Shown here: piece by piece, positions 10,291 through 62,165 of the stretch
Layout: each line of letters begins with the position of its first letter
Numbering within the stretch: position 1 is the stretch's first letter
NCBI RefSeq assembly: GCF_009834535.1
Contig: NC_045696.1
Coordinates: forward strand, 55,616,001-55,680,000
Source of the DNA: Camelus ferus
Lineage: Eukaryota
Length of the DNA: 64,000 bases
Direction: 5' to 3'
Notes under the pieces: generated by a model
What the model saw: the letters and a program-made list of their open reading frames with translations, nothing else
What the model was told of the DNA's origin: nothing
The model's database searches: none
Translations under genes and position numbers: made by a program

Positions 10291-12300
10291 CAGTCTCCAA
10301 ATAAACTCTGCCCATCCTTATTTCCTCTGTTTGTTGTATTTGTTGGTTTTTTCATTTGTTACCATGAAGCGGTTAAGAACATGAGCTTTGAAGTCAAAAC
10401 CCTGGCTCCAAATCCCAGTTCTGCATGACTTTGGTAAGTCAGCCTCTTGGAACCTGCTTCAGAAAAGCAGGTCTCACAGGGGACGGGGAGGATTCAGTAA
10501 GATACGTAAAGTGTGCATTAGAGCAGCTCACAGCCTGTAAGAGATACCAACAGGAAGTTATACCATAAGTCTGGTCTGAAGAACTCTGCTTGGCCTGTAA
10601 TCCCTGGGAACACGCCAACTACTGTCATGTTACTTCAATTTACTGCAATAAGCTTAATGAACAAGCTATACTGGTTCAAATTTACAGGCCCTCAAACAAT
10701 AGCTATGAGTAATAGCTTTTCAGCAAAACTTCTACTCAACAGTGGAAGAATGCACTAGGGCATCAGGATAAGGCACTTCAATGGATACATCTCAAGTTCT
10801 GTTTATTATTTCCAGAATCCTGGCTACAAATGCGATCTCTGCCCTTGCTGCCTTCACAGAGAAACCTTATAATCTCCTGACAATGTGATATTCTTGGGGG
10901 AGAAAACAAGACACTGGAGTCAAGAGACTGGAGTTTAAATCTTATCTCTTCCTTTAACCAGCTTTGGGAAGTTACTTAACTTGAATCTGTCTTTTCTTTG
11001 CAGGACTACATACATGACTATAGGACTATTGGAAAGTTAAAATTTAAAAAAAAAAAAAAGGAAAACTGAAATACAAAGCAAGCATTCAATTATGGTGCCC
11101 CATCCTTCACCAGTGTCTCCTCCAAGGCTCCAGCTCTCTCTCTCTCACACACACACACACATATACAAGATTCTATTTTATTCGAGGTTTTTCCACTTCA
11201 GCAGTTGTCAGTGGAACAATGGAGTCTAACCTGTACAGGTGTGTTCCCGGGGGGTGGAGACTGTCGGTCCCTCCTCTGTGAATTTCTTTGAGACCCATCA
11301 GGCCCTCTAAGTAGGTATAAGATAGTCTTCAGCATTCCGCAAACCAGTGAAGGTGGCAATAGCTTAAACATCTAAGGTACTAAGGAATAGACTTGAAAAA
11401 ATTTTTGGAATGTGATGGGTGAAAAAGAACTTGTGAAATGTTCCTGAGTATGCTCCATTTTGTGGGAACACACTCATGGCTTTTGAGACTGTATTATATG
11501 TAGGACTTGGGGAAAGTGGAGGTTATGAGTCTGCCAGAAAATGTCTTTCACCTCTCCCAAGACTCCATTCACAGAGCATCTGGGGTCCCCAGGAAACCCC
11601 ATAGGGGCTTGAGTGGAAGTGAGGGGGCAGAGGGCAGAAAAACCAGGGAGGGAGTCTGGAAAAAAGTTCAGAGACCAGATGAGAATGGAAGGCACTTTCA
11701 AGTCCAGAAGATACCAAATTTCTCTAGGAGCTAGGACAGGGGTGTAGAGTCAGGAAAACCTCCTTAAAGGAGAGAACCCAGATGAGGGCATCGTGGTGTA
11801 ATGGAACCTCCACCTCCTCTTCTACCCTGCTTATCTCAAGAGTCAACAGGATCAATAAAGTGTGTGTAAAAATGTCATAAACAGTAAAGCACTATAAAAA
11901 TGAGTGGTAGTATAAGTGAGAAAAAGTCAATAAAACCTTTAAAGTAGCACACTCTTCACGTTAAGTATTTGCAATGTTCAGACGGACGGCACCCACAGAA
12001 TCCTTAGCAACTGTAGAAGGTGTTATCTACGACACTCAGAAAGCTTGGCCTCTCTGTGGCAACTGACAACGGAAAACACACAGGGTGGGGAAAGGGGGAA
12101 GCTTTTGTAGCCAAACTGCCCAGCAGAGCAAGCAGGCGGCCACATGCCTCCTGCCAGTCACTGGGCTTCAGTACCTGGGGCAGGTACAGAGACACAGTGG
12201 GAAAACTTAGGTCTTAAAAAACTATCTTCCACCTCAAGAAGTTTCAGTGAGTCATTCAAACGACTTGTACGCAACCTTGGTTGAAAGAATTATCTGAAGA

Positions 12301-12467
12301 GGGGGAGGGTATTAGCAGTAGAGTGCATGCTTAGCATGCATAAGGTCTTGGGGTCAATCCCCAGTACCTCCACTAAAAAATAAAATTAAATCAAAAATTA
12401 TTTTAAAATATATAAAGAAACTTAATTACCTCCCCTCCACCCAAAAGAAACAAAAAAAATTTTTTTT
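12301..12467 (+). mobile_element. tRNA-derived camelid SINE (vic-1 type)
   Basis: Same head and tail; 16-bp TSD aagaat(t/g)atctgaaga at 12285-12300 and 12468-12483. Confidence 0.88.
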
Positions 12468-18330: not shown

Positions 18331-20259
18331 CTGGAAAAATAACAGGGATTTAAAAAAAAGAAAGTCTATCCCACTTACCTACCACTAGGCACTTAAAAAA
18401 GAATCATCAGCAAAAATTTACACACATGTGCACATACAGAGTCACACATATCTTGACTATGGGGTATTAAAAAAAAGAATTTTTTTATAATGTTGGGCCT
18501 CAGACAATAAGTCCATAAAAGAATCACATTGAACATTTACTACTGGGGTACAAAGAAGATGTGTCACTTTACAGTTTGTTGTTTTCCAAAAACAACTGAG
18601 AAAGTACATTTTAAAAAACATGACAAGTAGGCGAATCAAGTTTCTTAGGATCCTTAATTCACTTAGTGCTTCCTTCTTTGACAAAGAAAGTAATGATTGT
18701 TAAAGGTCAGAATCTAGGTTCAAATCTAGACTTTGTTGCTTACAACCTTGGTGAGTCAGTTCATCATTCTAGGTCTAGGTTTCCTCACCTGTAAAATGGC
18801 AACAGTGCTACAGAGTTGATCGGACAGGCTCAAAGGAGACCGTCCTTGGGGAGCATGCTTTGCAAACTCTAAGGTACTGTATAAGTGCAAAAAGGGTGGT
18901 GCCTGTTGCACAGGTGAGTAAATAAGTATTCAGTAAAGAAATCTCAACCAACTTTCATGTACCAATCAGTTGGTTTATCCAGAGCATTAGTCAAGAACCA
19001 CTCTGGATGCCATGATGTTCTCATCAAATGAAAGCAAGACTTGGGGCTCCCCTTTCCCTTGAAGCTGAGGAGCAACAGGAAAAAAGAGAGTGAAGATACA
19101 TGATCAGTGCAAAATTCTACTAACCATCCTATCTGGGCAGAGAAGTGGGTTTGGGGAAGATGATGGGTACCGTCAACCCCTAGGCTTTGCTACTCCTGCC
19201 CTGAAACCTTGCAGGCACCCTCGGTCCACTTCCTAAGCCACGGCCACAAGGGCTGCTGCTAACGGGCTGGCCCGTGAAGCTGCCCATCCCTATGGCCGTT
19301 CCCATGCAGCCTTTGGTCAGGGAGACCCCTCCTGTCAGAAACATTCCAGAGACTCTCAGCCTAGACACAGGAAAAAAGATCAACATGGAGCCCTGGCTTC
19401 TTCATGCCGAAGCAACGAAATATCTCCGGTAGTCACAAATCTATTAATTTCAGAACCTCAGCTGAGAGATTTCCTTTCCAAGAGGCAACAAGAAGAGGAA
19501 AGGGGTCTCTTAATAAAAAGGCCTTGTTATTACAAGTCTGAAGATCCTGGCCCCCAGCTCTTGAATAATTACTTATGTCTGGGAGCTAGGGATACCCACA
19601 ACCATCTGGCCACGAAACCCAAGTTCAGGAAAGGGGGCTGACAGAGGAGACCAGACATATCTCCGGTGGATTCCCCCAAGCAGAAAAGAGTCCAAGAGAA
19701 TCTGAGAGTCGTGCCAGCAGCTCGGATTCAGGCCTGGGAGTCAGGCCAGCAGCTGCTCCCCCAGCGTGTGGGGCTGGCTCATGTAGGAGGACACCCTGGT
19801 CTGCTTCAGGGCACGCAATGCCTCACAGGCTGCTAGCATTCCCTGCTCCACACATAGGGAACTGCCAGGGTCGCCTAGAGTCTGAGAGAAAACATAGGCT
19901 TCTAACAGGCCCTCTGGCCACTTTCCTCAAATTACAGCTTTGCAGACACCCTGCAGTTTGAGACTTTTCATTCACTGGCAAGACCCTGTCTCAGTAAGGA
20001 ATATCCACTGACAAGTCCACAGAGACCTCCATCAACACTCCTGGACCCCAAACACCCACAAGCCAGGACAAGATCACCTTCCACCATTTCTAAACTGTCA
20101 GTGGCAAAGAACAATTTGGGCCACCCTGCCCTCCCCCCACTCCCTGCCACCCCTGAAGCCCAAGTCGGACCCTCATGACCTGCTGGACTGGCATCTACAG
20201 AAACCATACACACCCACTGCTAGGAGAGCCCCGTGAAGGGACATGTCTCTGTTGTTCAC

Positions 20260-20382: not shown

Positions 20383-22687
20383 CTGGAGCCAAAGAAAGGA
20401 GAGAAAAGACCATTAGCACAAAGCCCTTTTGTTCTCCACAGAAGCTTCAGAAGTCTCGCATTGCAGGGCTGGCATTCTAGGACACTTTGAAGACTGTGCA
20501 CTTTCATCCATCCACTCCTGCTTGACATCCACCTCCCCACGTTCCCGGCCTTTTGTCCTCTGTCTAGACAAGTGCTCACATCTGCTCACTAAGCAAGGTG
20601 CCACCCACCAGTTATTGTTAATGTTTGTGTGCAGAGGTCTACCTGTAAATGTGCACTAGAACATCAGATCTGGATGATGGATTTCATCTCATGGGCCAAT
20701 CAAATGAACAGTAGTGGCTGCTAAGGGTAGTAGGTTAAGAAGGATTCTGAGGCTGCATCCAGGTTCAGCATGTGAATGTCATAATGAAAATACTGTTTTT
20801 TTGACTTTTACTTTTTTTAGAGAGAGAGTGGGGTTGAGAACAGAAGACAGCTCCTGTACATACTTTGAATGTAAACCTCCACCTTTGTGCATGCAAATCT
20901 CTATCTCAGAGTCTGTTTCCTGGAAAACTCAACATACCTCAATAACCCCGAGGTTTCTGGCTTGGGCAACTAGGTAGGTGACGGTGCCTTTCACAAAAAT
21001 AGGATATACAAACCAATAATTAGGTTTTGAGAGGAAGACAATAAATTATGGTTCGGATAAGCTGAATTTGAGATACCCTTGGGGCTTCTGCCAGTGGCAA
21101 AAAGGATACAGGGTACAAGTTCAATACAGAGGAGTGGCAACAGATACAGCTTTTGAAATCAGCTGCCAAGAGGTGGTACCTGAAGGCATGAGACTAGGAA
21201 AAAACTGCCCAAAGACAATGTAGTAAGTGAAAAGATAAGAGTACAAAGGGCAGAGCTGGGGAAATACCAACAAGGAAAAGGGGAAAGAGAAGAGGTCAAC
21301 AGGTGCCAGTCAGAGAGCACTGCCCACTCATACAGAGCTCATGGATTACTAAGAAATAAAGACATGCCTTGACTAGAACACTGTAGCAATTCAGAAACGC
21401 AAATGAAGGCAGCCTAATAACTTGGATGTTACCGAATAAAAAGAGGTGACTATATGGAGGATCTCTAACTTTAACTTCAGTTCAAAGCATTCCAGGACTA
21501 ATTAAATATTTCTGCTTTTCCAGATAAGGAGAAAAACCAAAAGGAAAGCTCAGTAAACATGTAGACACTTCCTATGTAACAGGTGGAGTCCCGAAGACTA
21601 ATCTGTAGCTCAGCTGTTCATTTCCATGCTCTGAGTATAGACATGGAGGACACTTGTTTAACCCATAATGGAAACTGATTTACTTATATACCTCCAACCT
21701 AAAATTCTGGAAAATGACAACCCAAGACAACCAAAAGGAACAAAGTGCTCAGAAGGCAGCTATTACTGACCAAGGACGGCCACTGCAGCGACCTGTTGCT
21801 ATGGTTACTGGACTCATCTGACAAGGAAGGGATTCCTAAGCTACCTGACAACCAGCAGCCTCATCAGGACACTGAGTAGAATGACTGTCCAGGCATAACC
21901 GGCCACGCACCAACCAGAGGCCACCAGGAGGGAAGCAGCACTGGTGCTTTGGTAGTGATCCACCACATAATGACTATACGCTGTGCAAAACGGCTGACTG
22001 AACACTGTAATAAGTAGGCCCTGCCCTCCCACAGTGTATGATCTAACACAAGAGGTGAACATGATCGGGGTTCTGAGGAAGGAGATGCCACATGTCAGGT
22101 CAGGGGGCCTAGGAGGATTCAGACAGGTAGAAAATGGGGGAACTTCCGGTGATCAGAACTCCACGAGGAAAAGCAAAGAGGGAGAAAAGTGCAGGCCATC
22201 TGAGGAGCACCTGGAAACCAGTCCAGCTGCAGTGGGAGGTGCAGGAGACCAGTTGGAAGGAGAGGTTAAAGAACTCTCAGTCTCTCAAGTACCTCTTAGA
22301 TGGCAAATGTCTACGTGTTTATTGATCTCTGCTTCTGGTTTTTCTTATCTAGAAAATCATGAATATTTGATTGGCCCTGAAACAGTTTTATTTTTAAAGG
22401 GCTGTAAGGCCCAAGGGTGGGGAAAATGTAGCCATAAAGTAACAGTAGAGTCCTTGTAGAAAGCTGGCAGTAAAATTTGCCACCAGTTGGTACCTGACCC
22501 ACAGCCAGTGGGATAAACCAGATTTATTTCTGTCTTCATCAGAGTCTGAGACAAGGTACTTTAACTTCTTCCCTCTGCATGTGTATAAAGTGAAACTACT
22601 TCTTGCACTTAGCATCATACTCGCGGGGCAGTTGTGACAATGAATAGTGTGCTGACCAAAGCTCTGTGGCGCAGGGACACACGGCTA

Positions 22688-30350: not shown

Positions 30351-30603
30351 TGAGGTATGGAGACACAGAAGGGCAGCTGTCAAGGTCTGCTTTTTTCACA
30401 GACGCTTCATCCGTCACAGTTCCTTTCTTCCCCGAAACGTTGCCCTTGTTGAAATTAGCCAGGAGATCCTTTGCTTTGGAGATCTTTTGAATAGCACCCA
30501 CAAAGTAGTAACTGGTGGCCCACCCAACCACTGTCAGGCATAAGGTGAAAAACAACAGGAATTGGGATTTGTAGGAAAGGTGGAAAGTCACGTTGAAGCT
30601 CAT
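30351..30603 (-). CDS. B4GALT4: Beta-1,4-galactosyltransferase 4, coding exon 1 (MSFNVTFHLSYK...CPSVSPYL; cytosolic tail, TM, stem)
   Basis: ATG at 30603 (GAC ATG A); type II TM segment FLLFFTLCLTVVGWA; donor A|gtaagt; 253 nt. The exon acceptor ttttag| places the exon start at 30749. Confidence 0.96.
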
Positions 30604-37681: not shown

Positions 37682-38733
37682 AAATAAGAGAATGGACCCG
37701 TAATACAATAGCTCCTTCAGAAAAGTTCATCTTCCTTCTGGTGAAGAATAGGGAGTAAGAAAATATATGAAAAGGAGATTTTTTAAATGCATTTGAATAG
37801 CTTCCGACTTCAACATTTAGAAATTTATTCTAATAAATAATCAGACAGGTAGACTATGATATTCAAACTAACATTACTAAAATAACCAAAAACTGAAAAC
37901 AATCAAAATGTTAACAACAGGAGCTGATTTAATTAGTTACAGTACCTACATACGAGGGAACACATGCTTTCCTTAATGGTGTTTAAAAACTTACCTGCAT
38001 GAGAAAGTGCTCACGATAGCTAAGTGAAAAAAAAAACAACACATAATGTAAAAAGGTACACAGAATACAACCCAAATTATGCTATATATGTGTGGTATGC
38101 ATACCTTTCACATATAAAATGCAAGAACCACTGGTGGTTGTCTCTAAACTATAAATTTTGTTCTCAATCTTTCAACTTTTCTAAAATAGGGTTTTATGAT
38201 CAGAAACAATGTTTTTTTCTGATAAAATGTTTTCCTTTAAAATATATTATAGTTTTCCTTTAAAATATATTAAAACCTAGAGATGACACAGTAGACAGAG
38301 ATTATCATTTTAGTAGCAATTCATTCACACAATTTTTTAAGGAAATCTGTTCTGAAAAGGCCTCAATGAGTTCAAATCTCAAAGAAAAACCTCGGAGGCT
38401 GTCAATAACTTTCAGTGCCAGAGAACTGTGTGGTCTCTGTTTGAAATTCTAATTCCTAGGCTCCATCTTCAGAGATTTTTATTTCCAAGGCTTGGGGGTG
38501 GGGCCAAGGAATCAATGTTTTCAACAGGAAGCTAGGTAGGTTTGTGGAAACCACTGTTCATTAATGGCTTAAAAAAAAAAAAAGAAAGAAAGAAAGGAAA
38601 GAAAACCACCACTGACTTTCTTTGAATGTTTCCACTTTAAAGATCTTCAAAGAAATGGTCAGCTCTCAAGTCTTGTATGCATCTCTGGAAAAAACACATT
38701 ATTATTAGCTCAGTTTAAAGTAAGTACTAAATA

Positions 38734-39532
38734 CTTTTCCTTTTCCCCTTTCTAGATTTTTTGGCTGATCTAATAATTAAATTGAATGGACATAAAACGG
38801 ATTAACAGGAGAAAAACAAATTTACTTTAATACCTATGGGATCTTATAAAAATATGAGGCTCAAAGAATAACCAAAGCAGGCAGCTTTTATATCTTTTAG
38901 ACAAGGATATAAAGATATATCAAGTGGCACATAAAATATACTGAGAGAGTGAGTTTTATTGCCTTCTCCAAAATTATGTAGTCAAACAGTTCAGTACCTC
39001 TCTTTAACAGATGTTTTAAATCAGATCAGAAGTCTGATCAAAGCATGAATCTTCTCAAAAAGGTACACTGAAGGGAAGCAAAATATGCCACTATATCAGT
39101 ATATCAATTATTTTGAATTAAAGTTACTTAAGAAATAGCCAGTGAAAGAAGGACATTTTCATCCTTTTGTCCCCGTGAAAGCAGGAAATAAATCTCCCAT
39201 GTGAAAGGGACCCTCTCTGTACAGGAAGACATCCTTATCACAAGAGATAGGAATTCAAGATGGAGAAGGCTGTATAATAAACCTTATTACTTCCTCATTA
39301 ATTCACTACCCCAAGCCCAAACTTCCTTGCCTTATCAATTCTTCACACACTTACTGTTTCCTTGTCTAAAAGATATAAAAGCTGCCTGCTTTGGTTATTC
39401 TTTGAGCCTCATATTTTTATAAGATCCCATAGGTATTAAAGTAAATTTGTTTTTCTCCTGTTAATCCGTTTTATGTCCATTCAATTTAATTATTAGATCA
39501 GCCAAAAAATCTAGAAAGGGGAAAAGGAAAAG
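38734..39532. repeat. Perfect 174-bp inverted repeat, arms 38734-38907 and 39359-39532, 451-bp spacer
   Basis: Manual base-by-base comparison found no mismatch between the left arm and the reverse complement of the right arm. Confidence 0.95.
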
Positions 39533-39548
39533 GTTTTTCTCCCTTACA
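39069..39548 (+). mobile_element. Solo ERV1 LTR (MER34-like) in B4GALT4 intron 1
   Basis: TGAAGGG...TTACA ends, 4-bp TSD acac (39065-39068 / 39549-39552), TATAAAA near 39374; start motif aatatgccac resembles the MER34 group. Confidence 0.82.
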
Positions 39549-40319
39549 ACACAAACAAGCACACAAACATTTTCAATTTCATGGGGTTTAGAGGCCAATC
39601 CTGCTCTAGAAGATAAAATTCCTAAAAGATAAACTGTGGTCAGATTAAGCATTATTTTAGAGATACATGCCAGGACTCTAGCCCACGTGCCCAGCCCAGG
39701 AGCCTAGGATAGCTAGCCCTTCACCCCTGTTTTTAAGTCCACTTTCTCAGCCTGGACCCTGAATCTTATTCATCCCTATCCAAGATTCCTTGACTTTCCT
39801 GCATCCTCAATGTTATTTCCTTTTCTTGAAAGACATTTAAAAATTTTTAGAAAAAAAAATTTTTAAACACCCTCAAATCCTCAAACCACTGTCTTCTTCC
39901 TCCTGCCTTTCATCGCCAAACGGCTGGCGAGGTCTCCCTGTGCCGTGGCCGCCCTCACGTCCTCTTGAACACTTTGCAACCTGGCACACGCCCACCCTGT
40001 TGATAACTTGCTCTCCTGAGACAACCAACCCAAAGGCCTTTTCTCAGTCCCAATTATCTTGGACTTTTCTGGGGTTTTCAAACTTAGAGTTAGACCTTAT
40101 CTAGTGGAAGATCAAACACCAACAGATATAGATCGACAGACACCAGATGTACGCAGAGCCTGACTAAGGGCCAGAATCTCTGAGGTACTTTAAAATCCAG
40201 CTGGCCCTCACAACTCGTCGGCCCCTGCAGGCCCCAGGCTGGGATCAGCAGATCAGTTTCCTAGTAGAAGCCCTGGGGAAAGAGGACTCCAAGGAGGAAG
40301 GGGCTTTCTCCACTCTGAT

Positions 40320-40990
40320 GAGCCTGGCGGGGAGCGAGATGCTGGTGGCGACCCCCGAACGGCGACGAGGGGCCTCGGCGGGTAACTCCTGGATCCCTAC
40401 CTGGCAGCATGTCGCCTGGCTACCCCTCCAGCAGCGTAGGGAGCGCCGCGGTAGCGCCCGCACCTGAGCCCCGGCCTCCGCAGGCCCCCTGCCCGGCCCC
40501 CGCCCCGGCTGAGGTAGGACGGCCCTCCGAGGCGCGGCCCGCGAGCGTCCAGCCCCGGTCCGTGACCGACCCGGCCCGCCGCCCGGCGATACCACACGGT
40601 GCCCGCCGCCTCCCTCTGCGCGGAATTGCGCGTCCCAGGCGCGGGCAGAGCGAAGGCCCGGCGAACTCACCCCAGACGCGACCGCGACGATCATCGCGCG
40701 GAGAAAGGGAAGGCGGCGAGAAGCAGCCGCGGGGACCGCCCCACGCCGCCCAGGAGGAGGCCCCTGCGCGCCGGCTCCGCCCCCCGCCCGTCCCGGGAGT
40801 CGCTTCGGCCGGACCCTGGGGGCGGGTCTGCGTGTTCCTTCGCTGGCGGGGCTCCACCGACCCCGCCACCCCCAACCCCACCCTCCCTGGGCGATGGAAG
40901 GAGCACCGGGAGGAAAGACCATCTTTGGGTGATCTTAATAAAGCTTTGTGCCTACTGCGCTAAGGTCTGGGCGCTTCCCAGATGCCCCTT
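40320..40990. promoter_or_regulatory. B4GALT4: CpG island / B4GALT4 promoter
   Basis: Very GC- and CpG-rich; Sp1-type GC boxes (ccgccc, gggcgg) at about 40777-40790 and 40818-40826; C-run cluster at 40861-40887. Confidence 0.88.
40671..40790 (-). other. B4GALT4: B4GALT4 non-coding first exon (5' end approximate)
   Basis: Strong donor GGG|gtgagt at 40670 inside the CpG island, downstream of GC boxes. A second donor CAG|gtaggg at 40400 may mark an alternative first exon. Confidence 0.65.
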
Positions 40991-41926
40991 GATTTACAAG
41001 CATTTAGCTCACAAAGCTTTGAGGAGACACAAACCTTCCCATTTTATGAAGTAGGAAACTGAGGTTTTAAAAGTTCATAAATTTACCTTACATCACCCTA
41101 ACAGGTTTCAGCTTTCTCAGCTGCAGTGTACCAAATTAACTGACTTTCCCATTTCACAAGACTATTGAGAATATTCAGTAACTAAATAGTGAGAAATCCA
41201 AATTTATTTTAAAATACACACACACACCCCCCCCCCAAGACAGAATCATATTTATAATAAAGATTGAGTGAAAAATCATGATGGGCAGTCAGGCAGGAGA
41301 GCAGGCTATATTATCCAACACAGCCTTCCACGGTAAGTAGCAGATTCTCCAAGAACCACCCCACCCCAAAAGGAACAATCCATGGGAAGAACCAGTGCTG
41401 GGGTCACCCAGGTCTAAGCAGGAGACCAGGGGCTTGGCTGAGGGCAGATGGAAGGTCTCCGCTGGCGGGATCGAAGCAAGAGGAGACAAACCTGAGCCTT
41501 CGACTTCAAGCTAAGACTGTGGAAGAACACTAAGGAGTTTCCAAGTCCCTTGTGCCCTGGACAATGGAAACACACTTTAGAGGTCACATCCTCAATTTAA
41601 TCCCATAGGATTCAAACAAATACAAGTTTCAATTTTAAAAAAATCACCAAGCACCGGAGGCCACACATAAGGACTCGCAGACCTCATACCCAAGAGATTT
41701 GGGCCCCCAAGGATGTCAGATACTAGAACTATCTGACACAGAATACAGGAGAACTCTTTGAAATTTTTAAAGAAGAAGATGTCCCTAGTGGTTACTTACC
41801 AATTACAAAAAGAATGTGGTACCCATTGGGGAAATCTGGCAGATAAACCTTAACCAAGTACTTAATTTCACCAATAGTACAAAACATACATGACATCATA
41901 CATGAGTTGATGCTCTAAGGACATAT

Positions 41927-42516
41927 TGTTGCAGAAAAATGTGTTACAGCTCAGTGTTACAGCTCAGTTACAGCTTGTTGTTACAGCTCAGTTGTAACAG
42001 CAACCTGGATCCAGGCAAGAGACCAAGCAGCACTCAAAGAGTTGGAGAACTCAGGTTTATTACACCAGCAGGCCCAGAAGAATTAACACTCCAAGCTCTC
42101 CACCCCATCTGTAGGTTTACACAGGCTTTTATAGGCTGCCAGTTTACACTTTGCAACACAATATGCAAATAAGGTATAACAAAAGTTGACTAATTAGGAA
42201 CAAGCTTTGTAGAAATGGACCAATCAGGAGGGAGAGAACCAATCAGGAGTGCGCTCCATGCAAATGAAGTATTACAAATGGACCAATCAGAAGTTAGGGA
42301 AATGGACCAATCAGGAGTGAAGGAAACGACCAATCAGGAGTGAGCTCAGGGATCAATAGAATTTTAGGGGTAAGTTCCACTTTCCTAGAAGTAAGCTGTT
42401 TCAGAGGCAAAAAGTGAGATAGAGCCTCTGGGCCAGGGAACCGGATGGTGTTGGCAGGAGAATAGTGGCCCTGCCTGGGGTCCTGCTGGTCTTTTTTTAT
42501 GGGGCTTTCCACCTCA
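41927..42516 (-). mobile_element. Solo ERV1-type LTR with CCAAT/octamer array, oriented toward B4GALT4
   Basis: TG...CA ends, perfect 4-bp TSD atat (41923-41926 / 42517-42520), minus-strand TATAAAA (42127-42133) and AATAAA (42056-42061), U5 tandem ttacagctcag-like repeats. Confidence 0.9.
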
Positions 42517-43065
42517 ATATCATCATTGTTGTACTGCCAAAAATGCATAATTCTAAATTAAAGCCCAAATTAAAGGATATTGTACAAAACAACTGGCCTG
42601 TATGCTTCAAAAATGTCAATGTGTTAAAAGACAAGGAATGATGAGGAACATTTCAGATTAAAGGAGAGTTGAGGAGATTTGACATCTAAATTCCTGGATT
42701 GGAAAAAAAATGTTACAAGGTATGTTATTGAGACAATTGTAAATGAGTATGTATGTCATGGTAGAGTAAAAAAAAAAAAAAAAGGAAAGTGAAAGTGAAG
42801 CTATGCCAATTCTGAGCCCAACCTTTTAAAGGCCATTATCTGCTTTCTGTTCCACTGTCTTCCATGTGTCAAAGCAGTCACAGCCAGCCCAGATTTAAAG
42901 GGAGGGAAAATATAGCCCCATTTCTCAGTGAGATGACTGTCAAAGAATTGGAGACTATTTTTAATCTTCTGAGTTATACATATTCATTTCCAATTATCTC
43001 AATAATACTCCTTTGAGCAACTTTATTCCAATCTAAGACCACATGTAAAGAAATCTCCTTAGTCT

Positions 43066-43765
43066 CCATTATGGACTGAATTGAACCCCCCCACCTCAAA
43101 TTCATATGTTAAAGCCTCTAGAATTATGAGAAAATAAATTTCTGTTGTTCAAGCCACCCAGTCTACAATATTTCGTTATGGCAGCTTTAATGAACTAATA
43201 CAGCCTCCTGTAATCTGGAACAGCTTCTCATCTGTCTTTGTCTTTCATAACATTGACATTTTTGAAGTGTACAAGACAGTTGTTTTGTAGAATATTCCTT
43301 GATTTGGGCCTATCTAATTATTTCCTCATGATTAAATTCCAATTATGCATTTTGGGCATAAATATGATAAAGATGATATTTATTATACCCTCAGAGCATC
43401 ACCTCATGTGTGATGCCAGTTTGTATTGGTAATCTGTAGAATCACTTTTTGTTGGAACCCTGAACCATCATGTGAGTAGCCCAGATACCCTGAGGCTACC
43501 ATGCTATGAGAAAGCCCACACTAGCCATGTGGAGAAGCCAAGGAGAAAAAGAAAAAGAGATGTCTAGCCACCTCCCAACTGTTCCAGCCACCAATCGCTC
43601 AGAATCGCCCCCACCTGAAGGTTAGACATCATAAAGTAAAGGTGAACCCCCTACTGCACCACATCTGAATTTCTGACCCACAGAATCATGTGATATAATA
43701 GTAGTACTCTGTTGTTTTCAGCTTCTACGTTTTGGGGTCATTTGTTACACAGCAATAAATAAAGT
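43066..43765 (+). mobile_element. MaLR (MLT1) fragments interleaved with an L1 remnant
   Basis: aataaatttctgttgttcaagccacccagt and ttttggggtcatttgttacacagcaata 3' motifs. Confidence 0.65.
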
Positions 43766-44629
43766 AAACCATGTGTCATATGATAATATTCTGTCAATAT
43801 TAAATTTGTTGCACTCGTGGTTATATAGTAGAGTGACTTTATTCTTAAGAATTATTTAATGATGAAGTGTCATGATGTCTGCAATTTCTCTCAAATGGTT
43901 CAGTTAAAATGTGTGTGTGTGATAGAGTTATCCAAACTCTATCTTATCTAATGGAAGATCAAACACCAACAGATATAGATGGACAGACACTGCATGGATG
44001 CAGAGCCTGACTAAGGGCCAGTATATATACATGTATATATATATATATTTTGAGTTAAGCAGGCACACAAATGTGACAAAATGTTAATAATTGATCAATA
44101 TCTTTTTAAAAGTGTATACAGGTGTTCCTTGAATAATTTTTACAACTGTTCTAAGCCGTGAAATTTTTTTTTAAGTTAAAATACAAAAGAGAGAAAGGAT
44201 TAAATCTCAAAGTGGAAAAAGCAGTAACTAGACTTTCCTTTCTGGCCAAGATAAAGTAACAGGGACCAGATGTACCATCACCTGAAGCATCCATTTAAAA
44301 AAAAAAGAAAAATATAAAAGAATAGTTTTCAAGATACTCATTATCAGGTAACAAAGGACAGTGATCTCTGACAGACAGGAAGCAAACAAGGTGAGCCCCA
44401 CAATTGTCCCAGCTCACTACCTTGAGAGAGTTTCTAAGCATAGCAGAGGGAAGGGAAAGCTAAAACAGAACCGGGAAGACTCCCTGAGTTGAGGAGATAG
44501 ACCCTGGAGTCCAGGGAGACCAGAGCAGCTAGATTTCACAGGACAGAATACCAAATAAAGACAGATGCACAGAGACAGAATACTGGAGATCTGCAAAGAA
44601 TCCCCTCAAAAAATCTCTATGATCAGTCA

Positions 44630-48649: not shown

Positions 48650-48785
48650 AAAGGTCTTACAGTGAAGATGACAAAACATTACTGAGAGAAATTCAAGAGG
48701 CCTAAAGGAATAGAGTTATATACTTTGTTCATGGGTGAAAAGACTCAATATTGTCAAGATTTCTCTCCTCAAATCCATCTGTAGA

Positions 48786-48955
48786 GGGGCAAGGTATAGT
48801 TCAGTGGTAGCGGGCATGCTTAGCATGCACGAGGTCCTGGGTTCAATCCCCAGTACCTCCATTAAATAAATTAAATACATACATACATACACACACACAT
48901 ACATACATACATATACTTAATTACCCCCATATAAAAAAAGTTTTAAAAAATTTAA
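48786..48955 (+). mobile_element. tRNA-derived camelid SINE inserted in old L1 ORF2
   Basis: A/B boxes, (CATA/CA)n expanded linker, approximate TSD aaat..atc(t/a)gtaga. Confidence 0.85.
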
Positions 48956-49897
48956 AAATTGATCAGTAGATTCAATGCATTTCCAATCAAAATCCCAGTA
49001 GATTGTTTTCCTTCAGAAATTGAAAATCTAACTCTAAAAATTAAATGAAAATGCAAAGCACCTAGGATTCCTAAAAACAATTTTCAAAAAGAACAATTGC
49101 AAACTCTAAATAAAGACAAAAAAGTTTTTTAAAAGGTAGCATGAAATATATTATTTGAGCAAGTCATGTAGTGTAAGAAAGAAGAGTCTACTTGGCCTTG
49201 ATGCTTGTTTCATTCTCCTTTGAGCTTCTCAGGCTTAAAGATATTGAATTAGTTTATCTTCTGAGCCAAACACTCAAAATTCTATAGCAAATAATATTTG
49301 CTGAAACATAACTGTAAGTCACAGCTGGTTTAGAGGAGTGAAAAAAAGACAAAAGAAGAAAACTGCAAGTCACAAAATAATTTTTTGATTTCAGCTTTTA
49401 GAATCAATCAACAGATAAAATACAGAAAAATTAATTATACTTACAGAACAAAATGCAAATGCTATAAACCCTCACATTGTAAATATAAAGGTAGAGAAGA
49501 TAGAAATTGGGAGGTACAGAGGGAGAGTGGGTGGAAATGAGGGGACAAGGAGAGGTGAAGAGCAGGATGAGGGGGCTACTTTTCTCTTACTACCCAGTAG
49601 GGAATCAAGAATTACTACTTACATTGAAGGAGCAAGAATTCAAACGTTAAGCATGGTGTTTAAATTTATAATGATAATCAAAAGAAGTATGGGAAATTAT
49701 ATCATTAACAAAGCACAGGAAGGGGGAAAGAAATGGAGAGCTAGTCTCAATGATTTGTTACCATTCATAGCTTTGGGTTAACAGACCCTGGATAAAGTAT
49801 ATAAATCAAGAAACAGTGATATAGGCATAGAGTTTATAATTATAGCACTAACCACTAAAAGAACTAAAACAAATTCCTTTTAATTAAAATTAAAATA

Positions 49898-50030
49898 GGA
49901 GGAGGGTATTGCTCAGTGGTAGAGCACACGCTTAGCGTGCAGGAGGCCCTGGGTTCAATCCCCAGTATCTCCATTAAAATAAATAAATCAATAAATAAAC
50001 CTAATTACCTTCCCTCCCCAACAAAAACAA
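49898..50030 (+). mobile_element. tRNA-derived camelid SINE
   Basis: A/B boxes, cctaattacct tail, 13-bp TSD taaaattaaaata. Confidence 0.85.
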
Positions 50031-51468
50031 TAAAATTAAAATACAAAACAAATTCTTTTTAATTAAAAATAAAATTAAAAAACAAAATTTTTAATTAAAA
50101 TTTAACTAAAATTTAATTCTTTTTAATTAAAAGCCTTTGGGTGGTAAGACATGGAGGTGAGAGAGAGGTTTGAGGAATGAAGCAAGAAATTCTTCTTTTT
50201 CCTTTGAATACCATTCTGTACCTTTTACATTTTTTAAACCAAGTGCACATATTACTTTTATTGTAGATATTCCTTATGCAATTTTATCATTTTAGTTTTG
50301 TTTAACTTTAGGTTTAAGGTTCAACTCTGTGTCCTCAGCACTGAGCCATGAGGAAATTATAATGCACCTATTTTTTAAGTTTTATGGTCAGAACATTTAC
50401 ATTTTCCAGATAAGGCTAAGTTACTTCACAGCCCGTCTCCTCACGATCTTATTTTCCAAAAAAACACTAACCCACATCCAAAAAAACCCAGAAAGGCAAT
50501 TTAAACCTTTACTAGTGTCATGAAAACATCAAAGGAGGGTTCCACTCATAATACATAATAAAACCTCTTAAAATCTTTCCCTGACCCGTTCTCAATGTCT
50601 CACACCATATGGTAGCTGCTCCCAAGTCTCTCTCCTTTTCAAACTTAAATGAAACACATCTCACACTGATTCTAGTCTCCTCCCTTTTCTTTCTGGGCCT
50701 TGCTCTCTTCTAAGTCTCTACTTGCTCAAATATAAGTCAACCTTCTCCTGCTGTCCATTTCATCTTTTACCACAAAGGTCTTTCTTCTTAGTCAGGGGCA
50801 ACTGGCATCACTGTAATGCTATTGCTAAAAGAAAACCAAATTTCCCAAAATTTGATTTCTGAAAAATCTACCCCAAATATTTGAGGCATATCCTGCTGGA
50901 ATTTAGTTACAAAGCTATGTTTCTCTACTGTAATCATCTTAAAGATAGAAGTGAGGTTTTATTCATCTTTGTGTTTGGGGAGCCAACAACATAGTAATTC
51001 TCCTTATAGCAAATGCTCATGTTACTGGTGAATTGTAATTTGAAATCGCTTTTATGGGAGAGTACAGGGGAGGAGGAGAGGAAGGAAACTAACATTTACT
51101 GAGCATCTCCTATGGAGCAGGCATCATGCCGTTAAGGCAGGGATAGAACTTTGCACCTTCTCTTGTAGATCAGTAATTCTCAACTGGGACCAAGAAAAGC
51201 GGACTGTGGAGGAGCACATGTAGCTTAAAAGAACCCTCCGTGTGAAGCTATTACTCCCCACCGTGTGTGCAAGCACACAGAACATGCACTAGAACATTCT
51301 AGTACCCCTGATTCAGATAAACTAAGATGTTTTTACAAATAGTGATGTGTCCAAAATGCTGTTTGACCTTGAGGTCTTGAGGGTAGGGGAGAAAGATTTA
51401 AGAACCAGTGGTGGAAACTCTGTGTATGTGTGTTGAAGTGTATCAATACACATACACACTCAAGATGC

Positions 51469-57705: not shown

Positions 57706-59066
57706 CACTCAACTAATCAGTGACAACACTCACATCTTTAAACTGGGAAGGGGGAGAGGAATGGGGGAGAGAAAATGTACCCAACAGGAGGAGGAGCTAA
57801 CACTCGTATCCAGAACAAAGAATTCAGAACATATTCATCACAGTCCAAGGATAAGGAATCATGTAAGAGTATTTAATTCGTTGGGCATGAGAAGAGGAGG
57901 GAGAACTCTAAAACTGCTGATTTCTAACTCTAGTTTGATGGGCAAACTAGTAAAAGAAAAGGCTAATTCACAGGTGACATTAAATCTCCCAGTACTCACT
58001 GAGAGTGAGTGTAAATAAAATAAGTTTTTACAGCAGAGAAGATTGCTACCAGCCTTGGTGAGTGAAGGAAGCAGATGGCACCCTTTGACAGTCATCAGTC
58101 TTAAACAATTGCAGGTAAGATACATCCTAGGCCAGGACAGAATTCTTCTGTGGGAGCTCCATGTGAGCGAAGTGCTTTTTACATCGTGATAATCTCCTAA
58201 GGCATAATTTATACTGTCACCAAATAGTTTATTAGTCATCCTGTTAACATTCCTACACTGTCTCCATGTAACCTCCTTCCTGGGAAATCCTCAGCCCAAG
58301 GGAAAAGTCCATTGAGACCCAAATCTGACTTCCTTCCGCAGGCTCAGAAAAAGGTACACATCTTAGAGTAAGCGAGGAGAAAAAGAAAAATGGCAAGAAG
58401 GGAGGAGAAAGAAAAATAGAGAGTGTCCCCAAAAATGGCTAGATTTGAGTTTGGCACCTAACACGGGGCTTCCTCAGCAATGAGAGGGGGTAGGGAGCAA
58501 ATGGGAGAGGACAGCTTTCCTGCTCCCTGGGTCAGGCCGCCACCATACAGCTTTGCAGCTTCATTATCCAGCTTGATAAACTGAGAGTTCTTCCCAACAT
58601 AAGGTGTAGATAATTGAGAGCTATCAAGTAGAGACAAGGAGCTACCATGTCCCCATTTCAGACAGGGTTTGTTCAATCAGCCAGGCATAATGGACGCCTT
58701 GTCCAGTGTTCAGTATTACATTGACTCTGAACCTTAAATAGCTTGAACTCAGCTTATCATGAAGCAGGGGCAGAAGGGTCTCAGGCTGTCCTAGAATAAA
58801 AATTCTATGATTATGGAGTCCCTTTGGGAAATCCTCAGTAAAGCACAGAAGAGTCCTGGGGCTATGTCAGTTACCTGCTTTATGGTTCATCTAGGCAGCC
58901 TTGTACTGTGACAACCTACACCTGCTGGGTTTGATGATAATTGGGGCATCTGGTACATAGCTAATGTTATAATCTGAAGATTTTGAGAATTACTTGTAAA
59001 TTACTGTTTATTTAACCTGTGAACTTTATTGTGAGAAAGACTATATCCTGATGAAAAATTTATATA

Positions 59067-59190
59067 GGGGGAGGGTATAGCTCAGGGGTAGAGTGTGTGC
59101 TTACCATGCACGAGGTCCTGGGTTCAATCCCCAGTACCTCCATTAAAATAAATAAACCCAATAACCCCCCCCCAAAAAAAAAAATTTAAT
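59067..59190 (+). mobile_element. tRNA-derived camelid SINE
   Basis: gggggagggtatagctcagggg...gggttcaatccccagtacctcc followed by A-rich and C-run tail. Confidence 0.85.
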
Positions 59191-60939
59191 TAATGCAATT
59201 AAAAATAAATATTTGAATACTGTCTGTTGATTCGCTAATATTGTATCAATATACATTTCCTTACTTTGATAATTGCACAGTGGTTATATAAGATATTAAT
59301 ATTTGGGAAAGCTGGATGAAGGGTAAATTCTTTGATTTTTTTTTGCAAATTTTTATAAGCTTACATTACTTCAACACAAAAATTTTAAAGAATGTTTTTA
59401 AAGCTTTAGAAAGGTAATTCACAGGGCTTGACAATTTATCCATAATTTGTGCCTGGGGGCCTGGGTCTAGGAAAAGAACAACCTTTCAGCCTCTCTGCTG
59501 CCAAAATGATGAAATCCACTGTAGGTCAGATGAAATAATGAACATGAAAGTCTTTGCTACAGTAAACTCCTAAACAAATGTTAACAGTAATAATTATAGT
59601 CTTATGTGGAGATGCTTCTCTATAAATAAAGGAACAAGCCATTATACTAAAAAGTGCTATCAAATATTCTCCAAGTAGCTTATAAGATGCTTAGAAATTG
59701 CTATCCTGGCATTAGAAAACAGGTAATCATTGATGGATTTTGAGCAAAGCAGGCAAATAACAATAGCAATACTTCAGGAAGATTCAACAAGTCCTTTAGT
59801 GCATAGGATGAAGTAGGAAGAGCCAGGACCCAGCAAACCCCACTAGGAGTGATTCTAATAACTTAGGAGTGAATGGTCCTCACTGAATGGACCTGGAAGG
59901 AAGAAGCCCAGAGGACAGGCATTTTGAAGGACTCATCGGTCTGGGCGGGATTAGGCTGGAAGTGTGGGTGGAAAGAGAGAAATGAGTCAGTGGTTACTTG
60001 AAGACGTCTCGCCAAGATGACTGGGGCAATGCTGGTGTCATGGAGAGACAGATGGAAAATAGAAGGAAGGAGAGACCATACACAGAGCTTGGGCTGCAAA
60101 CTCCAGTGGATCCAGAGGCCAGGCAGGAGCAAAGGGGGGATAAGAGGCAGTGGGGGCTGCGAACTGGAGGACTCATCTCTCTTAAGAGGGTGGAGCCTCC
60201 ATGGGGGGCTGCTACAACTTGGCATCAGCAGTGCTTGCCATGTGGGAATGTAACTTTGGTATTACCAGATCATCCATTTTGCAAGAGAAGCCAGAAATCT
60301 AGATCTCTTATGTGATAAATGTTAACTCTTTAATGTTGGCAATTAATTTAAAAAATTTTTCAAGCATGGCATGTGCTAAACCAAACACATCTGTGGTCCA
60401 GATTTGGCAGGCAGGCTCTCAATTGTGAGCTCTGACAAAGAGAGTAGGTCAAGGGTCAAAGTTCATAAACTGTCTTGGTGATACATAGAAAAATGAAAGA
60501 CTGTATCTAAAATACTGTACCTAAAGCTTTTCCCAGCATTCTGAACTATGAACGTCCCTACCCTTCAAGCCTATATTTGGATTTGAATTTCTACAGGAAG
60601 TTTAATAATCCTCAAATGGTTAAATCACAAGAATCTGAGTGCTTACTGTGTGCTGAGTACACAAAAGTCAAGGAATTTCAAATCTAACTGGAGAAGATAA
60701 AACATGCCCTCCTGAAAACTTGATACATTACGAAACATCCTGGGAGACTGCTTTCTCCACACGGTGTTAGAATATTAGAGTCATCTTAAATCCTGGATTC
60801 CCCCACCCCCAAATAATTTCCATTTAGCAAACTTGCGTGTACTTTAACCAGAAGTCTGCTTTCATGAACACTGGTTACACAGCGGCTGCCTCCATCCCTC
60901 CCTCAGCTTGGGAGGGGAGTTAGCAGGGCTGGGGGTACC

Positions 60940-62165
60940 TGGACGCCGAGAGGAGGATGGGAGTGGCCGGCGGAAAACCGCTCCCAGTCTGGTTTCTCTG
61001 CTGAAATCCCTGTCTTTGTTTCTGTCCTTACTCTTTAAGTGTTGGTGTAGGAGAAGGCGGGCACCGAAATAGAAAGTGTCAAAGAGAGGGTGACAACGAA
61101 GATAAAAAAAGGCAGGACATTTTTTTCAGTCCACCTAGCCCCCTCCGTCCAGAAAGCCAGCGCGCCTCCTCCCGCCGTCTTCAAAGAGCCGTCGGTGGGG
61201 CAGGAAGCAGGCGGCTCGGGCGGCGGGTGCTCATAGGAGAGCGGCGATTTCCTCCCGAGCTGCCCAGTTATCTCTAGAGTCGCAGACCAGCTCCCCGAAG
61301 AGCGCGTTCTCTCCCCCACCCCGTACTCCTCAACCCACCCACCTACTTCCTCCAGCTCCATACACACACGAGCTCAGAGCTGCCAAAAATTTCCACCCTC
61401 CGCCCCCCTCCCTAGCTAACTTCCTTCCAGCATTTCCTGAGCTGGATGATCCTAGGATTTGTAAGACAGGAAAAAAAGGAAGGCGTGAGGGCGGGCGAGA
61501 GAGACAGGATGCTTGTTTTTCGTTCCACCGAAGCCGTCTGAAGGCAAGACCGCGCGCGGGGCAGAGGACCCACGGCAGCCCCCCCGTCTGTCTCCGCGCC
61601 CCTCGCCGCCGCCGCCGGCTTCCCCGCGCCCTCCGCCACTCCCGGGCTTCCAGAAGGCGGACCGGAGAGCTCGCCCTCTCTCCGAAGCGGAGGGAAAGAC
61701 CCGAAGACACCGCGGGAGCCTGTGAAAGTCCCTGGGACTCCAAGTGAGGAAGTGACACTCCCAGCGAGCCGGCCCGCGGCTGCCAGCTCCGCACGGCCTG
61801 CGGCACCGCGGCCCTGGAGGAGCGCGCCGTGGATTTCAGGCTCCCCGCCCGCGCCGGGCTCTGCGCCCCGCGGGGTCCATGCGCGCCGCCCCGGGCCCAG
61901 GCTCTTCCGGACGCCCATGCGGCCCCCCAGCGCCGCGCCGCAGCCGCTGATCTAAGTCCCCCGGAGACCATCGTAGGCGCGGTGCCAAGCAGAGGGGAGG
62001 GAGAGACGGAGGGGCAACCTCTTCGGGACTAACTCATGAAGAACAAGGGTGCCAAGCAGAAGCTGAAACGAAAGGGAGCCGCCAGCGCCTTTGGCTGTGA
62101 CCTGACGGAATATCTGGAAAGCTCAGGACAGGATGGTAAAGTGCCTTCGCCTCCCCCACCCCCGT
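60940..62165. promoter_or_regulatory. ARHGAP31: CpG island / ARHGAP31 promoter and GC-rich 5'UTR
   Basis: High CpG density and GC boxes directly upstream of the ARHGAP31 ATG. Confidence 0.88.
62036..62135 (+). CDS. ARHGAP31: Rho GTPase-activating protein 31 (CdGAP), first coding exon (MKNKGAKQKLKRKGAASAFGCDLTEYLESSGQD)
   Basis: Recognisable polybasic N-terminus; in-frame TAA at 62030-62032 upstream of the ATG; 100 nt; donor G|gtaaag. The gene continues beyond the window. Confidence 0.95.

What the first reader, a model, noticed from the sequence alone, without database searches (positions are those of the whole stretch)
38734..39532. Perfect 174-bp inverted repeat in B4GALT4 intron 1, copied from an old solo LTR
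Seen: 38734-38907 is the exact reverse complement of 39359-39532, with a 451-bp spacer. The right arm is the TATA/R/U5 part of a complete solo LTR (39069-39548, TSD acac). The left arm is an orphan fragment with no LTR termini or TSD. Its inner junction carries aaagatata (38911-38919), which recurs in the donor arm (39369-39377). Inference: an apparently old LTR with a zero-mismatch local inverted copy points to a recent template-switch or polymerase-theta-type templated insertion, or to ongoing arm-to-arm gene conversion. Both arms lie in the pre-mRNA 1-2 kb from the promoter, so nascent transcripts could fold a 174-bp perfect duplex. Long perfect dsRNA is an established substrate for ADAR and Dicer and an activator of PKR. 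The repeat could also invert the spacer, and it places a TATA-bearing LTR piece in the gene's sense orientation.
Basis: partly seen in the sequence, partly recalled or inferred. Interest (0 to 1): 0.75.

Follow-up and report, generated by a model that had tools for sequence, protein, structure and literature searches.

The report
Camel inverted duplication, ancestral allele caught
In the 5' intron region of the camel B4GALT4 gene, 171 bases of an old retroviral LTR sit a second time, backwards, about 450 bases away, and one animal's data also hold the version without the copy, so this is likely an ordinary DNA-copying accident of a known kind, predicted to fold the unspliced RNA into a long hairpin whose effect is untested.

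Summary
In detail: 174 bp, no mismatch, 451-bp spacer, solo LTR with a 4-bp target duplication. It is not an assembly error: both left-arm junctions appear in 3 of 4 DNA runs, from three organisms, with identical arms. The fourth run also carries an empty allele, which resolves the event: 4 bases replaced by 181, entered at 3-bp microhomology. The insert is 171 bp copied backwards from 616 bp ahead, plus a 10-nt piece tiled by two fold-back copies of the new strand's own end (1 of 20,000 random inserts do this). This matches the common 'Inverted Dup' class of human variant maps (PMC4617611). Gene conversion is not needed: zero differences has probability 0.33 if the copy just predates the split between these camels. 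The duplex is predicted (z = -25.7), and low editing is plausible, but no RNA could be laid. Dicer and PKR roles are unlikely for an intron. One lead: the copy covers a candidate 156-nt LTR exon with the window's only all-pyrimidine acceptor on that strand. Interest 0.22.

The parts
38734..38736 (+). 3-bp microhomology: target-site bases that match the donor; outer end of the left arm
   Evidence: present in the empty allele, whose joint starts at 38736 (table 5c); match to donor ends there
38737..38907 (-). inserted 171-bp inverted copy of LTR bases 39359-39529; no LTR end, no A-tail, no target duplication
38908..38917 (+). 10-nt junction insert, tiled by two overlapping fold-back copies (8 nt from 38906, 9 nt from 38911) of the last 30 nt of the new arm
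   Evidence: 1 of 20,000 random inserts and 77 of 20,000 shuffles tile as well; absent from the empty allele
38908..39358 (.). 451-bp spacer (loop): junction insert, unique DNA and the 5' 290 bp of the LTR; ancestral orientation in the window
   Evidence: the empty allele joins 38736 to 38918 and the LTR is intact with its target duplication
39065..39068 (+). left 4-bp target-site duplication of the LTR
39069..39548 (+). 480-bp solo LTR, TG...CA, antisense to B4GALT4; multi-copy, diverged family (label 'MER34-like ERV1' is recalled, not tested)
   Evidence: 384-436 records laid per run on the stretch, depth up to 2,620 against about 12 in unique DNA (X3), longest listed foreign piece 96 bp with 8-9 other letters and 2 gaps
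39359..39532 (+). right arm (donor), with TATA-like TATAAAA at 39374-39380 and ATTAAA at 39435-39440
39549..39552 (+). right 4-bp target-site duplication of the LTR
39355..39510 (-). candidate 156-nt cryptic 5'-UTR exon in gene sense (motifs only): 18-of-18 pyrimidine acceptor, GTAAGT donor at 39354, three upstream ATGs with stops; the acceptor and 152 nt lie inside the right arm
   Evidence: use in RNA not tested
38756..38948 (+). candidate exon created on the antisense strand: copied acceptor plus a GTGAGT donor at 38949 (motifs only)
   Evidence: acceptor with donor within 300 nt; donor read
30352..30603 (-). first coding exon of B4GALT4
   Evidence: 98% to alpaca B4GALT4 over 84 aa
40300..40900 (-). 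CpG island, inferred B4GALT4 promoter and exon 1; candidate donor at 40670
   Evidence: 94 CpG in 40001-42000 against 13 in 38001-40000; donor motif; not confirmed by RNA

Best explanation
The left arm is a 181-bp insertion that replaced 4 bases, likely made in one germline template-switch event, and it is probably a near-neutral passenger in a B4GALT4 intron. Shown: the two alleles, the 3-bp microhomology, the 171-bp inverted copy and the templated 10-nt junction. Inferred steps: (1) synthesis of the plus strand stopped at 38736; (2) its last three bases annealed to the opposite strand 616 bp ahead, in the LTR's purine-rich run, and copied 171 nt backwards; (3) the end folded back on itself twice, 10-20 nt behind the tip, adding 10 nt through 2- and 3-nt microhomologies; (4) it rejoined the original template at 38918 through a 2-nt match, losing 4 bases. 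A replication-fork switch (FoSTeS/MMBIR type) best fits the long tract, and a polymerase-theta-like step fits the short one. The arms are identical because the event is likely young enough, not because they are being homogenised. The pre-mRNA is predicted to form a 174-bp duplex that would be lightly A-to-I edited and degraded with the intron.
For: Junction contigs 38611-38763 and 38878-39135 in X3 (organism A), X6 (B) and X13 (C); the arms collapse into one 167-171-bp contig with 0 other letters at 1.5-1.75 times flank depth. In X14 (C) contigs break exactly at 38736 and 38918, a contig joins these places with 4 other letters (depth 3.5), and the depth table leaves about 11.6 for a filled junction, so both alleles are present. 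Fold-back tiling test: 1 of 20,000 and 77 of 20,000. Age: 6 substitutions shared by X13 and X14 in 1,907 flank bases (0.31%, 95% range 0.12-0.68%); 1.1 differences expected in the arms, P(0) = 0.33; upper bound about 4.5 times the A-C split. Class: 54% of 229 validated human inversion sites were inverted duplications, nearly all under 1 kb and within 5 kb of the other copy (PMC4617611, passages). Switch order 1-4-3-2 makes 31% of human-chimp events (PMC5453318, passages). No Rfam match.
Against: The empty allele rests on one short contig of depth 3.5 in 1 of 4 runs. It is lower than a heterozygote predicts (binomial P 0.02-0.06 one-sided), so contamination from another camelid or a mixed sample is possible. 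No outgroup was available to prove it ancestral. Its 4 letters also form a 7-mer found in the arm (chance 11-24%), so a later deletion is not excluded. An empty allele still present in C while diverged filled haplotypes span A, B and C needs an old polymorphism or gene flow. Neutrality is assumed from the class, not measured: no RNA was laid. The overlap with a strong candidate acceptor argues for caution. Contigs cannot name the polymerase or show spacer orientation.
Confidence: 0.75

Rival explanations
1. Same origin, but with a splicing effect: the duplex hides the acceptor and body of a cryptic 156-nt LTR exon that carries short upstream ORFs, so filled alleles would include this exon less often and translate more B4GALT4.
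For: The acceptor at 39511 is the only one with 18 of 18 pyrimidines on the minus strand of the 64-kb window; the gene's five internal coding-exon acceptors have 13-16. A GTAAGT donor follows 156 nt later. The arm covers the tract, the acceptor and 152 of 156 nt. An inverted exon copy is linked to exon skipping in human CHM (PMC8756506, passages; hairpin predicted there, not proven).
Against: Motif counts only, no splice-strength model. 16 of 47 minus-strand acceptors with at least 15 pyrimidines also have such a donor, so pseudo-exons are common. The donor's exon side is non-consensus and AG dinucleotides lie close upstream (sequence). The left arm is transcribed about 600 nt after the acceptor, so splicing may commit first (inference). 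No RNA evidence.
Confidence: 0.1
2. One reading: the hairpin feeds Dicer or activates PKR/MDA5, or is a selected editing substrate.
For: Predicted -413 kcal/mol against -196 for shuffles, z = -25.7. Alu editing decays with distance on a scale of about 800 bp, so 451 bp is close (PMC4066801, passages).
Against: Intronic duplexes normally stay nuclear; release to the cytosol needed loss of hnRNPC in human cells (PMC8313407, abstract only). Truncated Dicer is rodent-specific and non-rodent oocytes hold minimal endo-siRNA (PMC13399003). Near-identical Alu pairs are edited less; the paper's formula gives about 1.9% at 451 bp (my arithmetic; human Alus, not camel). No Rfam match. Editing alone would not show function.
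Confidence: 0.05
3. The copy is much older and arm-to-arm gene conversion keeps it perfect.
For: Arms are identical in three organisms.
Against: Zero differences is expected with P = 0.33 without conversion. An empty allele is still seen. No derived change shared by both arms in any of 4 runs, which is the mark conversion would leave.
Confidence: 0.05
4. The left arm acts as a new promoter or polyadenylation site in gene sense.
For: TATAAAA and ATTAAA (38831) now read in gene sense.
Against: The 290 bp of LTR upstream of the arm were not copied. 15 A[AT]TAAA hexamers already lie on that strand in 30.8-40.4 kb, two of them upstream at 39490 and 38960.
Confidence: 0.04
5. Assembly artefact.
For: Three of the listed runs may be the window's own source.
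Against: None of those three was laid; both junctions occur in X3, X6 and X13, from three studies and three organisms.
Confidence: 0.01

Closest known systems
'Inverted Dup' class of the 1000 Genomes structural-variant map (Sudmant et al. 2015, PMC4617611; passages read)
   Same: Stretch under 1 kb, inverted, inserted within 5 kb of the other copy, two alleles, no sign of retrotransposition.
   Different: Camel, not human; seen in short-read contigs, not long reads; apparently shared across Camelus species.
Four-point template switch, type 1-4-3-2 (Loytynoja and Goldman 2017, PMC5453318; passages read)
   Same: Order of switch points; creates an inverted repeat; opposite-strand copy explains it.
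   Different: Jump of 616 bp and tract of 171 bp are far beyond the few tens of bases modelled; two extra switches are needed for the 10-nt piece, which the model leaves out.
MMBIR-type templated insertions in the human germline (Osia et al. 2021, PMC8421209; passages read)
   Same: Inverted local template, microhomology at junctions, several templates in one event, germline variant.
   Different: That search covered templates within 100 bp and inserts up to read length.
Polymerase theta templated insertions (Carvajal-Garcia et al. 2020, PMC7165422; passages read)
   Same: Short AT-rich inverse-repeat pieces, repeated rounds, 2-3-bp microhomologies: fits the 10-nt junction.
   Different: Primary tracts rarely exceed 10 bp and templates lie typically within 30 bp; the 171-bp tract does not fit.
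CHM exon-12 inverted duplication (PMC8756506; passages read)
   Same: Intragenic inverted copy with microhomology and extra junction bases, predicted to pair with the pre-mRNA.
   Different: There a real coding exon is skipped and causes disease; here only a candidate cryptic exon is covered and no effect is shown.

Membership tests
Inverted Dup (1000 Genomes) | inverted duplicate shorter than 1 kb | tested here: met
   171 bp inserted, 174 bp identity
Inverted Dup (1000 Genomes) | inserted within 5 kb of the other copy | tested here: met
   451-bp spacer
Inverted Dup (1000 Genomes) | an allele without the copy exists | tested here: met
   joint 38736 to 38918 in 1 of 4 runs, one contig, depth 3.5
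Inverted Dup (1000 Genomes) | no retrotransposition marks (A-tail, target duplication) | tested here: met
   4-bp loss instead of a duplication; no tail
Inverted Dup (1000 Genomes) | structure confirmed by long reads | not testable with these tools
   all 24 listed runs are kept as contigs
Four-point switch 1-4-3-2 | order of switch points 1,4,3,2 with reverse-complement middle piece | tested here: met
   38736, 38918, 39359, 39529
Four-point switch 1-4-3-2 | single short-range round (tens of bases) | tested here: not met
   616-bp jump and two more switches
Polymerase theta templated insertion | tract of about 10 bp or less from a template within about 30 bp | tested here: inconclusive
   met by the 10-nt junction, not by the 171-bp tract
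Polymerase theta templated insertion | dependence on POLQ | not testable with these tools
   past germline event
Solo LTR | TG...CA ends and 4-6-bp target duplication | tested here: met
Solo LTR | dispersed multi-copy family | tested here: met
   hundreds of partly matching contigs in 4 of 4 runs
MER34-like ERV1 LTR | match to a Dfam or Repbase model | not testable with these tools
   no repeat library here; label recalled
Edited inverted repeat or endo-siRNA hairpin locus | A-to-I clusters or phased 21-23-nt reads | not tested
   no RNA run was laid; 0 Rfam matches
Gene-converted inverted repeat | arm identity beyond what age predicts, or changes shared by both arms | tested here: not met
   P(0) = 0.33; no change in either arm in 4 runs

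The most novel reading that the evidence does not exclude
A single copying slip made an antisense mask for an LTR-derived, uORF-bearing 5'-UTR exon of B4GALT4, switching its splicing (and perhaps adding a new exon to an antisense transcript), and both alleles have survived across the split between camel species, giving a natural on/off experiment in RNA-structure control of a glycosyltransferase.
Probability: 0.08. Interest if true: 0.55.

Novelty: new member of a known kind. Interest (0 to 1): 0.22.

Why it matters
As it stands it is a clean, base-resolved example of a common mutation class, useful as a marker and as a case where a long switch and short fold-backs occur in one junction. No paper on this locus turned up (open-licence library only; supplements of camel variant catalogues were not read and might list it). 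It would matter more if the duplex changes splicing of the LTR exon, because heterozygotes would allow an allele-specific test in one nucleus, or if the two alleles prove to be an old polymorphism that outlived the split between camel species.

Tried and rejected
No whole genome is held for this window, so neither family copies nor orthologues could be searched there. An exact scan of metagenome contigs with a 26-nt right-flank pattern found 0. RNA runs X15-X20 share 0.14-0.82 of the words, but none was laid and DNA carry-over cannot be told apart, so they are not used as evidence of expression. Rfam: 0 matches at E up to 1 in 38500-39800. The sigma-70 scan does not apply to a mammal and was ignored. 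Pfam found no family for 2 of 5 pieces. A retrotransposed or second LTR insertion was rejected: no termini, tail or target duplication. A 3-bp 'ata' target duplication, which the window alone would allow, was rejected once the empty allele showed a 4-bp replacement. Spacer inversion cannot be judged: 174-bp arms exceed the 31-base words, so both orientations give the same contigs. The direction in which the minus strand folds back was considered; it gives the same product but needs the short templates from about 450 bp away, so it is less economical. Earlier-finding look-ups near this place and by the first word set found nothing. A search for MER34 papers (listing only) offered no way to test the family label.

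Full report
1. Observation. The repeat is as described. 38734-38907 equals the reverse complement of 39359-39532 at all 174 positions, with 451 bp between. Nothing else among the window's 14 inverted pairs of 30 nt or more comes near; the next is 92 nt at 80%. The element 39069-39548 begins TG, ends CA and is flanked by acac on both sides. The host gene is B4GALT4 on the minus strand: three exon frames hit the glycosyltransferase-7 families in Pfam (3 of 5 pieces), the first coding exon is 98% identical to alpaca B4GALT4, and six exons tile that protein. A 77-aa stretch of a Camelus ferus model matches at 100% and one residue sides with C. ferus against alpaca, so the window is likely Camelus. 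The repeat lies between the CpG island and the first coding exon. Whether this is intron 1 was not tested with RNA.

2. Is it real? Four DNA runs were laid as contigs on 38000-40300: X3 (organism A), X6 (B), X13 and X14 (C), from four studies, none flagged as the window's possible source. In X3, X6 and X13 one contig runs from unique DNA 30 bases into the outer end of the left arm (38611-38763) and another from 30 bases inside its inner end into the spacer (38878-39135). The arms collapse into one contig of 167-171 bp with no other letter, at 1.75, 1.70 and 1.47 times the mean of five flanking contigs. This is the pattern of a true, exact repeat. The piece table was cut (32 of about 1,850 rows shown), and so were the joint and loose-end tables.

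3. The empty allele. X14 differs: its contigs break at 38736 and restart at 38918, and a contig of depth 3.5 joins these places with 4 other letters between (tables 5c and 8). The extra depth in bin 38924-39000 amounts to 15.1 over 24 positions, leaving about 11.6 for a filled junction that the cut table does not list; the arm ratio is the lowest, 1.31. So X14 likely holds both alleles. The split 3.5 to 11.6 is uneven for a heterozygote (one-sided P 0.02-0.06), so a mixed or contaminated sample is possible. I read this allele as ancestral because it lacks exactly the copied tract and the templated junction piece. A later deletion is less likely but open: its 4 letters with their neighbours form a 7-mer found in the arm, which 11-24% of random 4-mers would do.

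4. Anatomy of the event. Four bases were replaced by 181 (38737-38917). The three bases before the insert match the donor, a 3-bp microhomology. Then come 171 bp copied backwards from 39529 to 39359, starting 616 bp ahead in ancestral coordinates. The remaining 10 nt are fully covered by an 8-mer from 38906 and a 9-mer from 38911, both found in the reverse complement of the arm's last 30 nt. Random 10-mers of local composition are covered that way 1 time in 20,000, shuffles of the insert 77 in 20,000. The most economical path is plus-strand synthesis that switches to the opposite strand, copies 171 nt, folds back twice near its tip and rejoins through a 2-nt match. This path is inferred; the enzymes cannot be read from sequence.

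5. Age and conversion. X13 and X14 share 6 substitutions against the window in 1,907 unique bases (0.31%, 95% range 0.12-0.68%) and four small indel places; X14 has 2 more substitutions, which I left out of the count; X3 and X6 show none in their unique pieces. Filled haplotypes on both sides of this divergence have identical arms. Only 1.1 differences are expected, so zero has P = 0.33, and the insertion is at most about 4.5 times as old as the A-C split. If C is the one-humped lineage (inference; labels are coded), that split is about 4.4 million years, range 1.9-7.2 (PMC9374477, passages). Conversion is therefore not needed. The donor LTR is old by comparison: the longest listed foreign family piece is 96 bp with 8-9 other letters and 2 gaps. 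An empty allele surviving in C then needs an old polymorphism, gene flow (introgression between camel species is reported in the same review) or a foreign source of that contig; this is unexplained.

6. What it may do. The gene-sense strand is predicted to fold at -413 kcal/mol, z = -25.7 against 20 shuffles, which any perfect 174-bp repeat would give. No RNA run could be laid, so editing, splicing and expression are untested. From the literature, human Alu editing falls off over about 800 bp and near-identical pairs are edited less (PMC4066801, passages); its formula gives about 1.9% at 451 bp. Intronic duplexes reached the cytosol when hnRNPC was lost (PMC8313407, abstract only). Efficient endo-siRNA production depends on a rodent Dicer isoform, though abundant injected dsRNA works in cow, pig and sheep oocytes (PMC13399003, passages). 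Template-switch hairpins have given rise to miRNAs, but those need stems of about 35 bp with short loops (PMC10710096, passages); Rfam finds nothing here. The copied TATA lacks the 290 bp of LTR upstream, and the new ATTAAA is 1 of 15 such hexamers in 30.8-40.4 kb.

7. Read in gene sense, the LTR offers an acceptor at 39511 with 18 of 18 pyrimidines, the only such site on that strand of the window, against 13-16 at five internal coding exons, and a GTAAGT donor 156 nt on. The candidate exon holds three ATGs that meet stops within it. The arm covers the tract, the acceptor and 152 of its 156 nt, so the duplex could mask it. Against this: 16 of 47 weaker minus-strand acceptors also have a donor in range, only motif counts were used, and the purine-rich run may simply be where the switch landed. 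A human precedent for skipping by an inverted copy exists (PMC8756506, passages). I give it about 10%.

8. Comparison and novelty. It meets the tested features of the 'Inverted Dup' class, which made up 54% of 229 validated inversion sites in human genomes, nearly all under 1 kb and within 5 kb (PMC4617611, passages). It works like a 1-4-3-2 template switch (PMC5453318, passages) but fails that model's short-range, single-round definition. Multi-template germline insertions are described (PMC8421209, passages), and polymerase theta fits only the short piece (PMC7165422, passages). Earlier notes of this scan list five similar local inverted copies of 42-206 bp in the same genome among 8 shown of 77 matches; they are unchecked AI notes, used only as a hint that such events are frequent. 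One note from another genome pointed me to the CHM paper. Searches for B4GALT4 with intron and LTR (0 papers), with camel (4 unrelated) and for camel inverted duplications (6 unrelated) found nothing on this locus; I saw listings only and read no supplements. The MER34-like and Vic-1 labels are recalled.

9. Verdict. Real, base-resolved, and a new member of a known kind. Origin about 90% likely as described; origin plus near-neutrality 0.75. Interest 0.22; the most novel reading (allele-specific masking of an LTR exon) has probability 0.08 and would merit 0.55.

Noticed in passing
window 40096-40177 and 43943-44024: An 82-bp direct copy at 90% identity, 3.85 kb apart, on either side of the B4GALT4 CpG island; depth over the first copy is single-copy in four DNA runs, so it may be an older local duplication that has decayed.
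   Followed up: partly
window 39008-39021: Organism C lacks 14 bp of the spacer (2 of 2 runs); the ends share a 5-bp direct repeat, as in a microhomology deletion.
   Followed up: partly
window 42563-42666 and 43205-43309: An 81% inverted pair about 540 bp apart, perhaps the ends of an old DNA transposon.
   Followed up: no
window 5199-5313, 12297-12458, 48785-48885, 49886-50035, 59055-59164: Five copies of a tRNA-like short repeat at 70-87% identity; they resemble the camelid Vic-1 SINE (name recalled, not tested).
   Followed up: partly
window 38756-38948 (+): The copy places an 18-of-18 pyrimidine acceptor 193 nt before a GTGAGT donor on the strand opposite B4GALT4; a human antisense RNA overlaps this gene (recalled), so a new exon is possible.
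   Followed up: partly
window 21844-22074 and 19744-19890 (-): A Camelus ferus B4GALT4 model (P0016) includes two intronic stretches as coding; likely a faulty gene model rather than real isoforms.
   Followed up: no
window 60001-62000: A second CpG island (103 CpG), likely the next gene's promoter (ARHGAP31 by recalled synteny).
   Followed up: no
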